Shown in pieces: positions 28,733 to 30,557 of a DNA stretch of 64,000 nt (the first letter of the stretch is position 1; each line of letters begins with the position of its first letter). Origin of the DNA: the human T2T-CHM13v2.0 reference genome, Homo sapiens; assembly GCF_009914755.1 (NCBI RefSeq), contig NC_060929.1; one strand, given 5' to 3'. The notes under the pieces are model-generated. The model was not told the origin of the DNA, ran no database searches, and saw only the letters and a program-made list of their open reading frames with translations. The translations under genes and the position numbers were made by a program.

Positions 28733-30557
28733 GTTGTTTTTAACCAAAGTTTTAATGAAAAAGAAAAGACATTAAATTTTTTTTTAAACAGGAGGGTTTG
28801 GGCATGGAGCTGGTTGATCTTAAAAATCCTAACCCAGCTGGGCGTGGTAGCCCACGCCTATAATCCCAGCACTTTGAGAGGCCGAGACAGATGGATCACC
28901 TGAGGTCAGGAGTTCGAGACCAGCCTGGCCAACATGGTGAAATCCCCGTCTCTACTAAATATACAAAAAATTAGCTGGGCATGGTGGCAGGCGCCTGTAA
29001 TCCCAGCTACTTGAGAGGCTGAGGCAGGAGAATCACTAGAACCCGGGAGGCGGAGGTTGCAGTTAGCCAAGATCGCACCATTGCACTCCAGCCTGGGCAA
29101 CAAGAGCGAAACTCCGTCTCAAAAAAAAAAAAAAAATTCCTAACCCATTCATTCCCGTCAAGCTGTCCAAAACTAGTAACTGGAAAGGTCCCGTGATGCT
29201 GGTCTCTAAACATCGAACACAAAGACTAGAATAATAGAATTATCTGGTATTTTCCCTTTCCAGAAAATTCCATCTTCAATTGGGGTCTATGGGTTCAAGA
29301 GCCATATTTATGAACCAAAAGTTAGGACACATAGTCTGGTACAGGGACAATGGATGGTAGGAAAAATAGCCAGGATCTAGCTGTTGAAACTGCAGCCCTC
29401 TCGACTCTAATACTCAAGGGATTAAAAGAATCCGGCCCCAGAAGTTTTAGATACAAAAATAGTAACAACCCAATTGAATTTTACTGCATTTAAAAAACAT
29501 AATTATTTCCAAATCTACTGAGCAACTGAACAGTCTTCAGTGACGCCTACGGTCGCTGGGATTCGAAGACTCTCACTCCCAGGAGCGACGGGCTTTTTTA
29601 TGCCTATGGGATTTATCTCGGCTCCTACTTCGAGTTCTGTGACTACGCCCTTCGGAACGCCAGTTGTACGGGCTAGAAAGTGTGTCTGAGCTCTGCCCTC
29701 TGTCCCTATCCCCGGTTGTTTCTTCTCTTGCCTCCTTCCTGCTTGAGGACTTGTGCTCGTGCTTGGGTTTCTCCTTCTTCAGCTCCCTCTCTAGGTCCTC
29801 TGCTCCACCGTAGCAGGCAGTCCTGGCTTCGGGGAGCTTCCGCCTCTCCCTGGGCTGTGACTTCTGAGCTCTCTCCGAGTTCTTGCTGCTGTGCTTCTTA
29901 GGGCCAGGGTCATCTTTTTCCTTTACTGTCTTGCTTGTGGGTGACGAAGAGGATGGTTGCTCTGCCTGTACCAACCGATCAGTTTTCTCTTTTTCTTTCT
30001 TTCTTTTCTTTTTTTCCTTTTTCTCTTTCTTGTGCTTTTTTATTGGTTTTTCATCTTCAGAGCTCTCAGACGAACTTGATGAGTAGGTATGAGGCCCACA
30101 GGAGCCCTTCTGGAGCTCTTTGGTCGCATCATCCATTTCTTCCGAGTTCTTAGGAGCCCGATAGTTAGACACATGATCCACTCGGATAGTTCTTCCTTTG
30201 ATCTTGATCCCATTAAAATTGTCAACGGCCAGAATTGTGCTCCTCTGGTCTTCATAGCAGAGGAAACAGAATCCTTTGGATTTCCCAGTCTTCTTGTCCC
30301 GCACAAGATTAATGTTAACAATCTCCCCATATTGTGAGAATACACAGATGATGTCCCCTTCAGTCAGTTCATAAGGAAGCCCTCCCAGGAAGATCCAGGC
30401 GCTGTCCTTGTACTCGGAGTGCCAGGACACCTTATCGGCCACCCCAAGCTGGACCTCTCCCTCATTCAGCTTGTTGATCAGCTTCACCTTAGTTAAAGCA
30501 TTCATCTCCGCGGGCTCGCGCTCAACGTTCAAGTATCAGTGCCGGGGCGAGGCAGCC
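28733..30557 (-). pseudogene. RBMX2P5: RBMX2 retrocopy with an open 310-codon ORF (30505-29573), candidate retrogene
   Basis: Intronless. [11 protein letters not shown] start, RRM ([16 protein letters not shown]) and K/RS-rich tail. TGA about 12 codons before the parental stop. ATTAAA at 28756-28751, Alu in the 3'UTR (~28836-29136), 14-bp TSD at 28160-28173 and 30558-30571. Symbol number recalled. Confidence 0.9.

What the first reader, a model, noticed from the sequence alone, without database searches (positions are those of the whole stretch)
28733..30557. RBMX2 'pseudogene' behaves like a selected out-of-X retrogene
Seen: the ORF is open for 310 codons with no frameshift and keeps many CpGs. 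An AluS-type element sits inside its 3' TSD, so the copy predates that Alu. Against the parent as I recall it, residues ~17-119 (the whole RRM) are unchanged while the region after NYRAPK has many substitutions, an asymmetry that neutral decay should not give. Established: RBMX2 is X-linked (RES splicing complex), and X-derived autosomal retrogenes often compensate for meiotic sex chromosome inactivation. Inference: a current or recently lost testis-expressed retrogene about 10 kb from SPZ1. The terminal TGA and a few N-terminal changes could mark recent relaxation.
Basis: partly seen in the sequence, partly recalled or inferred. Interest (0 to 1): 0.8.

Follow-up and report, generated by a model that had tools for sequence, protein, structure and literature searches.

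The report
Conserved autosomal retrocopy of RBMX2
A chromosome 5 "pseudogene" copied from the X-linked splicing gene RBMX2 has kept its reading frame and an unchanged RNA-binding domain in apes and an Old World monkey, so it looks like an overlooked retrogene, although nobody has yet shown that it is expressed.

Summary
Window 29573-30505 (-) is a 310-codon ORF inside an intronless copy of RBMX2 mRNA with an 8-bp target-site duplication, ATTAAA, a short A-tail and a nested Alu. Against the parent gene rebuilt from the same genome, codons 17-119 (the RRM) show 0 nonsynonymous and 4 synonymous differences. Codons 120-310 differ at 41 of 191 residues.

Two same-age sibling copies (chr1, chrX) let me assign changes to lineages. 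The chr5 lineage has 2 of 308 changes in the RRM (both synonymous), against 44 of 585 in the tail and 21 of 484 in the 3'UTR. The siblings carry stops, frameshifts and 5-7 RRM replacements.

Predicted proteins from gorilla, gibbon and red colobus form a 100%-supported clade with this ORF. Their RRMs differ from the ancestor at 1-2 of 103 residues. The colobus protein ends at the same codon 310, so the "terminal TGA" is ancient, not recent decay.

Best reading: a catarrhine-wide out-of-X retrogene with purifying selection on the RRM only and a nearly free tail. Expression, translation and testis specificity could not be tested. RefSeq lists no transcript and I found no paper. I rate it a new member of a known kind, of moderate interest.

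The parts
30564..30571 (-). 5' target-site duplication AAGTATCA of the retrocopy
   Evidence: Longest string shared by the two flanks; sequence.
30506..30563 (-). Retroposed 5'UTR, homologous to parental exon 1 upstream of the ATG. It is CpG-rich.
   Evidence: Aligned to parental exon 1; 12 mismatches in 53 compared sites. 200-bp windows spanning 30401-30750 have CpG o/e of 1.0-1.4, partly because of the adjoining (CG)n run.
30458..30505 (-). ORF codons 1-16, with three replacements (P3A, E12K, R16G)
   Evidence: A3 and G16 are shared with gorilla, gibbon and colobus; K12 with gorilla only.
30149..30457 (-). ORF codons 17-119: RRM block, protein-identical to RBMX2
   Evidence: 0 nonsynonymous and 4 synonymous differences from the parent. 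Of these, 2 synonymous and 0 nonsynonymous lie on the chr5 lineage. Pfam RRM_1 covers residues 38-108, E=4.3e-20.
29576..30148 (-). ORF codons 120-310: K/E/S/R-rich tail, evolving almost freely but still in frame. It includes an in-frame 3-nt deletion plus 3-nt insertion at codons 133-135.
   Evidence: 41 of 191 residues differ from the parent. Pairwise dN/dS is 0.65 (NG86) or 0.84 (LWL85). Lineage pN/pS is 0.73. The indel pair is read from the alignment.
29573..29575 (-). TGA at parental codon 311 (parent CGG), the ORF's stop
   Evidence: The colobus orthologue ends at the same residue.
29537..29572 (-). Remnant of the parent's last 11 codons and its stop, still in frame behind the TGA
29145..29536 (-). 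3'UTR, part 1
   Evidence: Aligned to the parental 3'UTR. Whole 3'UTR p-distance is 0.104.
28834..29144 (+). Alu-like insertion nested in the 3'UTR, with its own duplication GGGTTAGGA..TTTTT
   Evidence: Absent from the parent and the chr1 and chrX copies. Subfamily not determined.
28733..28833 (-). 3'UTR, part 2, with ATTAAA (28751-28756) and a short decayed A-tail (about 28733-28741)
28725..28732 (-). 3' target-site duplication AAGTATCA

Best explanation
RBMX2P5 is an L1-type processed copy of the spliced mRNA of X-linked RBMX2, the RRM subunit of the spliceosomal RES complex. It was inserted on chromosome 5 before the split of apes and Old World monkeys.

Shown: since insertion, the lineage has kept a 310-codon ORF and an almost unchanged RRM, while the K/E/S/R-rich tail has drifted at close to the neutral rate. 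The tail was shortened by 12 residues by a stop that is itself old.

Inferred: the locus is, or was for most of catarrhine history, a protein-coding retrogene. Its product has the RES-type RRM, which could take RBMX2's place beside BUD13 and SNIP1 on the intron, with a remodelled N-terminus, post-RRM segment and tail.

Speculative: it works in male meiotic and post-meiotic cells when the X-linked parent is silenced. Whether the human copy is still active cannot be decided here.
For: (1) Retrocopy anatomy. The copy is colinear with all five parental exon junctions, has an 8-bp TSD, ATTAAA and an A-tail, and sits on another chromosome.

(2) Human lineage. Private changes of the chr5 copy are 2 of 308 in the RRM (both synonymous), 44 of 585 in the tail and 21 of 484 in the 3'UTR. 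A mutation model with CpG hypermutability puts 31-34% of neutral changes in the RRM. It gives P(0 nonsynonymous in the RRM) of about 3e-5 for 41 substitutions.

(3) Sibling controls. The chr1 and chrX copies have the same 3'UTR branch length (20 and 18 of 484). Chr1 carries stops at codons 210 and 296. ChrX carries five frameshifting indels, a TAG at codon 12 and a 2.1-kb insertion. They have 5 and 7 RRM replacements.

(4) Other species. Gorilla P0001, Hylobates P0004 ('RBMX2-like') and Piliocolobus P0002 (310 aa) share the copy's diagnostic changes. They form a clade with it at 100/100 support, in species-tree order. Their RRMs differ from the ancestor at 1, 2 and 2 of 103 residues, while their tails differ at 33-40 of 166-191.

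(5) Event counts by parsimony. The chr5 clade has 5 RRM events against 67 tail events. The two dead-copy clades have 25 against 64 (Fisher p=5e-4). With a probably frameshifted Cercocebus stretch removed they have 18 against 64 (p=0.012).

(6) The conserved block covers the part homologous to the yeast Snu17/Ist3 RES-core constructs (query residues 30-116 and 30-130).
Against: No evidence of transcription or translation. The RefSeq table given with the finding calls it 'pseudogene' with no transcript, while a neighbour is 'transcribed_pseudogene'. No paper in the searchable library names it.

The tail is near neutral. The gibbon protein has a 7-residue deletion and ends early at 285 aa.

With the two siblings as the only neutral control, the human-lineage test is modest: Fisher p=0.019, 0.0065 or 0.077, depending on which sites are pooled. 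Inside the RRM the synonymous versus nonsynonymous contrast rests on 2 events (p=0.048). Protein-level constraint is therefore not cleanly separated from a low local rate on human data alone.

Open frames are not rare by chance. P(no stop in 310 codons) is about 0.15-0.2, and the chr1 sibling has no frameshift either.

Ascertainment. The locus was picked because it looked conserved. The protein database holds only copies that pipelines chose to predict. The gorilla model skips residues 6-7 and 305-312, so it was probably patched around defects. Orthology by synteny was not checked.
Confidence: 0.6

Rival explanations
1. Once-selected retrogene that is now silent or decaying in humans. Selection on the RRM acted in the catarrhine stem and early crown but has recently lapsed on the human lineage.
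For: No annotated transcript (hub table) and no literature. After the human-gorilla split only 2 amino-acid changes are assigned to the human branch (Y231C, R271Q). That branch is too short to show relaxation. Using recalled primate divergences, only about 2 RRM replacements would be expected.
Against: Nothing disabling is human-specific. The stop at 311 and the N-terminal changes are shared with other species. Human has 0 RRM replacements.
Confidence: 0.2
2. Ordinary neutral processed pseudogene. The intact frame and clean RRM are luck plus picking the best-looking copy out of thousands.
For: ORF survival alone is not improbable. The sibling-controlled tests on the human lineage give only p=0.0065-0.077. 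The tail looks neutral. The finding was selected after the fact.
Against: Gorilla, gibbon and colobus have 1-2 RRM changes against 33-40 tail changes. Dead copies of the same gene and age, in human, gorilla and Cercocebus, have 5-15 RRM changes. Fisher on events gives p=5e-4 to 0.012. The binomial against the mutation-model share gives about 5e-8. Colobus keeps the identical 310-codon frame.
Confidence: 0.1
3. Constraint at the nucleotide or RNA level (for example a regulatory or antisense-type transcript, or a local mutational cold spot over the first 360 bases), not on a protein.
For: RRM dS against the parent (0.061) is lower than tail dS (0.17). Only 2 of 308 RRM sites changed on the chr5 lineage, so synonymous sites are also quiet.
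Against: Both RRM changes on the chr5 lineage are third-position synonymous, with 0 of 241 nonsynonymous sites hit (Fisher p=0.048). The siblings show no cold spot there (5-6 private plus 4 shared changes). The mutation model gives the RRM a normal share. The frame is kept for 191 further codons despite heavy substitution, including a compensated 3-nt deletion and insertion. There is no Rfam match.
Confidence: 0.07
4. Gene conversion by the parent or its mRNA keeps refreshing the 5' third of the copy.
For: Lower divergence in the 5' third (97-98% identity to parental exons 2 and 4 and 94% to the 63-base exon 3, against 89-90% for exons 5-6).
Against: The copy lacks the parent's own derived synonymous states at codons 15, 72 and 94. 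It has private ones at codons 55 and 67 in between, and private replacements at codons 3, 12 and 16. The donor is on another chromosome.
Confidence: 0.03

Closest known systems
RBMX2 (parent gene, Xq; RES complex subunit with BUD13 and SNIP1; PDB 5z56 chain Y)
   Same: Same frame over 322 codons with no indel. Residues 17-119 are identical. Best PDB hit E=1.4e-165. RES membership of RBMX2 comes from passages of PMC13194972.
   Different: Intronless and autosomal. A stop at codon 311 makes it 12 residues shorter. 3 of 16 N-terminal and 41 of 191 tail residues differ. The segment just behind the RRM (120-145) is remodelled, including an in-frame deletion and insertion.
Primate out-of-X retrogenes of RNA-processing genes (for example RBMXL2/hnRNP G-T from RBMX, CSTF2T and PABPC3; names recalled, not from a call) and the class described by Marques et al. 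2005
   Same: Intronless copy of a broadly needed gene that is X-linked here. Its dS of 0.11-0.14 from the parent falls in the retroposition burst that paper dates to 38-50 Mya, and the ORF is intact (passages and abstract of PMC1251493 seen).
   Different: Those have shown testis expression or function; this one has none shown. Its whole-gene Ka/Ks of 0.52-0.63 lies just above the 0.5 screen used in that paper, and its frame is shorter than the parent's. That may be why screens filed it as a pseudogene (my inference).
Sibling retrocopies on chr1 (probably RBMX2P3, which two papers place near TBX15/WARS2 or list as a processed pseudogene) and on chrX
   Same: Same parent and similar age (private 3'UTR changes 20, 18 and 21 of 484). 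The chrX copy also predates the ape/monkey split: it groups with Cercocebus P0114 at 97/94.
   Different: Both are disabled and carry 5-7 RRM replacements in human, 6 in gorilla (chr1 clade) and 15 in Cercocebus (chrX-copy clade).
Yeast Snu17/Ist3 (RES core; PDB 5gm6_V, 2mkc_A, 4uqt_A)
   Same: RRM homology E=2.5e-36 over query residues 10-130.
   Different: Distant orthologue of the parent. It has no long charged tail.

Membership tests
Processed (L1-mediated) retrocopy | Colinear with the spliced mRNA, with no introns | tested here: met
   Continuous alignment across the five parental junctions at CDS nt 5, 121, 173, 303 and 481.
Processed (L1-mediated) retrocopy | Poly(A) signal and A-tail at the 3' end, flanking target-site duplication | tested here: met
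   ATTAAA at 28751-28756, a short A-rich tail, and an 8-bp AAGTATCA on both flanks. The tail is short and decayed.
Processed (L1-mediated) retrocopy | Located away from the parent gene | tested here: met
   The parent's exons are on contig C23 and the copy is on C5.
RBMX2/Snu17 family RRM protein | RRM_1 domain with RBMX2 as the closest relative | tested here: met
   Pfam RRM_1 E=4.3e-20, residues 38-108. PDB 5z56_Y E=1.4e-165.
RBMX2/Snu17 family RRM protein | Assembly with BUD13 and SNIP1 into RES and into the activated spliceosome | not tested
   No binding prediction or experiment was done. The RRM is identical to the parent's, but residues 120-145 are changed.
Functional (selected) retrogene | Open frame kept in orthologues | tested here: inconclusive
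   3 of 3 retrievable orthologues are predicted proteins: colobus 310 aa colinear, gibbon 285 aa with a deletion and early end, gorilla 312 aa with two skipped stretches. Species without a predicted protein cannot be seen. The cluster sizes of 14, 19 and 5 members could not be opened.
Functional (selected) retrogene | dN/dS below 1 on the retrocopy's own lineage | tested here: met
   Met for the RRM only: 0 nonsynonymous and 2 synonymous on the human lineage, and 5 against 67 amino-acid events across the clade, compared with 25 against 64 in dead copies. Not met for the tail (pN/pS 0.73, pairwise 0.65-0.84). No codon data for other primates.
Functional (selected) retrogene | Transcribed and translated | not testable with these tools
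   No expression data on hand. RefSeq lists no transcript (hub table). No paper found.
Out-of-X retrogene compensating for meiotic sex-chromosome inactivation | Parent on the X, copy on an autosome | tested here: met
   One search places the parent on C23, contig 23 of 24. That this is the X rests on the gene's name and my recall of the assembly.
Out-of-X retrogene compensating for meiotic sex-chromosome inactivation | Expression in meiotic or post-meiotic male germ cells while the parent is silent | not testable with these tools
   None.

The most novel reading that the evidence does not exclude
Catarrhine primates, humans included, carry a second, autosomal gene for the RRM subunit of the spliceosomal RES complex. 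It was born by retroposition from X-linked RBMX2 roughly 30-45 million years ago, and it has an invariant RRM but a rebuilt post-RRM segment and a free-running tail. It is used in male germ cells when the X is shut down, where it could change which short, GC-rich introns are retained. In human annotation it is hidden as the pseudogene RBMX2P5.
Probability: 0.3. Interest if true: 0.7.

Novelty: new member of a known kind. Interest (0 to 1): 0.55.

Why it matters
If it is expressed, humans would have an unannotated protein-coding paralogue of a core spliceosome activation factor. That matters for testis splicing programmes, for male-infertility gene lists, and for proteomics and variant pipelines that now discard reads and peptides mapping to a 'pseudogene'.

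It also shows how whole-gene Ka/Ks screens, and the rule that a frame shorter than the parent's means a pseudogene, can miss retrogenes whose constraint is confined to one domain.

If it is not expressed, it is a well-controlled example of how far comparative sequence evidence alone can mislead. Three same-age copies with different fates make it a useful test case either way.

Tried and rejected
GC-biased gene conversion as the cause of the excess of tail changes on the chr5 lineage. Private changes are 15 W>S against 22 S>W in the tail, so there is no bias.

CpG richness as the cause of the RRM/tail asymmetry. The mutation model gives the RRM a 31-34% share whatever the CpG factor.

Positive selection on the tail. 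This is not needed. Tail pN/pS is 0.73, inflated by 6 nt that are really an in-frame deletion/insertion pair. The excess of private tail changes (44, against 24 and 19 in the siblings) may partly reflect an earlier branching of the chr5 copy. E226 is shared with non-anthropoid outgroups while the parent, chr1 and chrX copies have K, and there is a weak 83/80 grouping in the tree. This is unresolved.

Short database proteins as evidence of disabled orthologues or of transcripts. The five close short hits fetched (P0121, P0127, P0128, P0144, P0204), like the close longer contig proteins P0070, P0085 and P0115, are mosaics of the chr5, chr1 and chrX copies and parental introns. They look like assembly chimeras and I drew nothing from them.

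Rfam scan of 27500-31500: no family matched.

Literature. 'RBMX2P5' gave 0 papers. 'RBMX2P' gave 2 papers, both about RBMX2P3. 'RBMX2' with retrogene, retrocopy, retrocop, pseudogene or testis gave nothing on this locus.

Supplementary tables of retrocopy surveys (PMC1251493, PMC2584115) could not be opened and may list this copy.
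Full report
WHAT IS THERE

On the minus strand, 29573-30505 is an ATG-started ORF of 310 codons. Read on to 29537, it keeps the full 322-codon frame of its source, with one stop (TGA, codon 311) and no indel. The best solved-structure match is human RBMX2 (5z56_Y, E=1.4e-165, residues 1-309 aligned without gaps). Next comes yeast Snu17/Ist3 (E=2.5e-36; RES-core constructs cover query residues 30-116 and 30-130). 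Pfam finds RRM_1 at residues 38-108 (E=4.3e-20).

The whole genome was searchable. The parent lies on contig C23 as six exons. Its translation equals the PDB sequence over the 309 residues shown.

The chr5 copy is colinear across all five junctions. It starts in exon 1's 5'UTR and ends after ATTAAA (28751-28756) and a short A-run. It is bracketed by AAGTATCA at 30564-30571 and 28725-28732. An Alu-like element (28834-29144, plus strand, with its own duplication) interrupts the 3'UTR. It is missing from the parent and from two sibling copies, so it arrived later. I could not assign its subfamily.

Against the parent, codons 17-119 have 0 nonsynonymous and 4 synonymous differences. Codons 1-16 have 3 and 2. 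Codons 120-322 have 43 nonsynonymous and 13 purely synonymous codons, and 41 of 191 residues differ in 120-310. Pairwise dN/dS is as follows:
- RRM: dN 0, dS 0.061.
- Tail: 0.65 (NG86) or 0.84 (LWL85).
- Whole gene: 0.52 or 0.63.
- 3'UTR p-distance: 0.104.

Pairwise numbers, however, mix changes in the copy with changes in the parent.

WHOSE CHANGES ARE THEY

The genome holds two further near-full-length RBMX2 retrocopies, on chr1 (90% identity) and chrX (89%), plus old fragments on chr21 and chr7. A four-way alignment (1474 shared sites) gives a star-like tree. The 2-2 splits number 10, 8 and 2. Private 3'UTR changes are similar: chr5 21, chr1 20, chrX 18 and parent 16 of 484.

Private changes of the chr5 copy are 2 of 308 in the RRM (codons 55 and 67, both third-position synonymous), 3 of 44 in codons 1-16, 44 of 585 in the tail and 21 of 484 in the 3'UTR. 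The siblings have 5 and 6 private RRM changes, plus 4 sites they share.

On the chr5 lineage the RRM has 2 synonymous and 0 nonsynonymous changes (68 and 241 sites). The tail has 12 and 33 (pN/pS 0.73), and six of those nucleotides are really a 3-nt deletion plus a 3-nt insertion at codons 133-135.

The siblings are dead. Chr1 has stops at codons 210 and 296 and an in-frame 12-nt deletion. ChrX has five frameshifting indels, a TAG at codon 12 and a 2.1-kb insertion.

IS IT MORE THAN CHANCE

A mutation model (transition bias, CpG transitions 1-15 times faster) puts 31-34% of neutral substitutions in the RRM, so composition does not explain the deficit. With 41-49 substitutions in the CDS, P(at most 2 in the RRM) is 3e-6 to 4e-5, and P(0 nonsynonymous) is 3e-6 to 3.5e-5.

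Using only the two siblings as an empirical control is less decisive. Fisher gives p=0.019 for private changes (RRM against the rest of the CDS), 0.0065 with shared sibling sites added, and 0.077 when UTRs are pooled in. Inside the RRM, synonymous against nonsynonymous gives p=0.048. An open frame by itself is unremarkable: P(no stop in 310 codons) is about 0.15-0.2.

CpG retention is slightly higher than in the siblings (20 of 39 against 29 of 91, p=0.048; stricter set p=0.12). There is no W>S bias.

OTHER PRIMATES

A search of about 5.8 billion predicted proteins returned 2957 hits at E<=1e-20, of which the best 120 were listed. Three of them carry the copy's diagnostic states (A3, G16, N120, the KGS indel signature, and others):
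- Gorilla P0001: 312 aa, 96% identity.
- Hylobates moloch P0004: 285 aa, named 'RBMX2-like' by its source.
- Piliocolobus P0002: 310 aa.

In an ML tree of 19 sequences they form a clade with the human ORF (100/100) in species-tree order. The human chr1 copy pairs with gorilla P0071 (100/99), the human chrX copy with Cercocebus P0114 (97/94), and the true parents group together (100/97). So the chr5 and chrX copies both predate the ape/Old World monkey split.

P0002 ends ...RRSWE at residue 310, exactly like the human ORF. The stop at codon 311, and W309, are therefore ancestral to crown catarrhines. A3 and G16 are shared by all four species, and K12 by human and gorilla. That removes the 'recent relaxation' reading.

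Differences from the reconstructed ancestor in the RRM (103 residues) are as follows:
- Chr5 clade: 0, 1, 2 and 2.
- Chr1 clade: 5 and 6.
- ChrX-copy clade: 7 and 15.
- The three parents: 0.

Tail differences in the chr5 clade are 30-40 of 166-191.

By parsimony the chr5 clade has 5 RRM events (two of them at site 19) against 67 tail events. The two dead clades have 25 against 64 (Fisher p=5e-4). Leaving out a probably frameshifted Cercocebus stretch gives 18 against 64 (p=0.012). Against the model share the binomial is about 5e-8.

I also computed Poisson expectations from primate neutral divergences that I recalled rather than computed. These gave about 14-24 RRM replacements expected and at most 5 seen. 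They are illustrative only.

CAVEATS

- Only proteins, not codons, were available for other species.
- Only copies that annotation pipelines chose to predict can be seen.
- The gorilla model lacks residues 6-7 and 305-312 and was probably patched.
- The gibbon protein has a 7-residue deletion and an early end.
- Synteny was not checked.
- Cluster sizes (14, 19 and 5 members) hint at more species but could not be opened.
- Several near-identical short contig proteins are mosaics of different paralogues and parental introns. I treat them as assembly chimeras, not as evidence of expression.

MECHANISM

Shown: an L1-type retrocopy of a RES-complex RRM protein, older than the catarrhine crown, with domain-limited conservation.

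Inferred: purifying selection on a translated RRM protein. The conserved block (17-119) covers nearly all of what is homologous to the yeast RES-core constructs. RBMX2 is a RES subunit with SNIP1 and BUD13, needed at spliceosome activation (passages of PMC13194972). The product would plausibly occupy the same place, with altered flanks (residues 3, 12, 16 and 120-145) and a tail constrained only in composition, if at all.

Speculative: use in male germ cells during X silencing, as the abstract of Marques et al. 2005 reports for X-derived retrogenes.

The only promoter hint is a roughly 350-bp patch with CpG o/e of 1.0-1.4 (30401-30750), which includes a (CA)n(CG)n run and the retroposed 5'UTR. 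SPZ1 ends 8.9 kb away and points towards the copy's 3' end, so a shared promoter is excluded.

WHY IT MAY HAVE BEEN MISSED

Its dS of 0.11-0.14 puts it in the retroposition burst that Marques et al. date to 38-50 Mya. Its whole-gene Ka/Ks (0.52-0.63) is just above their 0.5 screen, and its frame is shorter than the parent's. I found no paper naming RBMX2P5. The other RBMX2 searches gave nothing on it.

VERDICT

The selected-retrogene reading is supported at the sequence level for the RRM. 'Recent relaxation' is rejected. Expression is untested. This is a new member of a known kind, of moderate interest.

Noticed in passing
L002 (G000:C1:119096747-119100664) and L003+L011 (G000:C23:139577032-139583080), compared with window 29537-30505: All three human retrocopies (chr5, chr1, chrX) share K129 and a CCG/CAG codon at position 279. 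No parental orthologue or outgroup shows these states (R129; W or R at 279). This suggests a common source allele now lost from the parent lineage, or serial retroposition from one copy.
   Followed up: partly
proteins P0070, P0085, P0115, P0121, P0127, P0128, P0144, P0204: Public short-contig proteins are mosaics. They join chr5-copy-specific stretches to chr1- or chrX-copy-specific stretches, or to read-through into parental introns 4 or 5. They look like assembly chimeras among RBMX2 paralogues and could mislead expression or orthology calls.
   Followed up: partly
proteins P0069 (Cebus), P0100 (Callithrix), P0119 (Saimiri), P0122 (Saguinus): New World monkey predicted proteins form their own clade (100/99 for the three in the tree; Saguinus P0122 was not in it). 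All four share RRM changes (L43I, V94F) and lack all chr5-copy markers. This looks like a separate platyrrhine RBMX2 retrocopy lineage with ORFs of 156-283 aa.
   Followed up: partly
parent RBMX2, G000:C23:128721800-128733200 (L004, L006-L008, L010): By parsimony the parent's tail gained about 8-10 replacements (for example E130Q, T175A, S191C, A227S, D266I) between the retropositions and the catarrhine ancestor. It gained only 1-5 per lineage afterwards. This points to a burst in the parent's own tail.
   Followed up: partly
window 30572-30612: A (CA)n(CG)n microsatellite abuts the 5' target-site duplication. Together with the retroposed 5'UTR it gives 200-bp windows with CpG o/e of 1.0-1.4 between 30401 and 30750.
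   Followed up: partly
window 30094-30117 (codons 130-137): The apparent cluster of multi-nucleotide differences at codons 133-135 is a 3-nt deletion (GAG) followed by a 3-nt insertion (TCC) six bases later. It keeps the frame and is shared by all four species of the chr5 clade.
   Followed up: yes
L005 (G000:C21:13183397-13186730) and L009 (G000:C7:13052260-13055620): Two much older, partial RBMX2 retrocopy fragments (79% and 70% identity over about 330-360 nt), both heavily decayed.
   Followed up: no
window 28163-28725: Directly 3' of the retrocopy's target-site duplication lie two further Alu-like elements, one apparently inserted into the other. The copy therefore sits in an Alu-dense stretch.
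   Followed up: no
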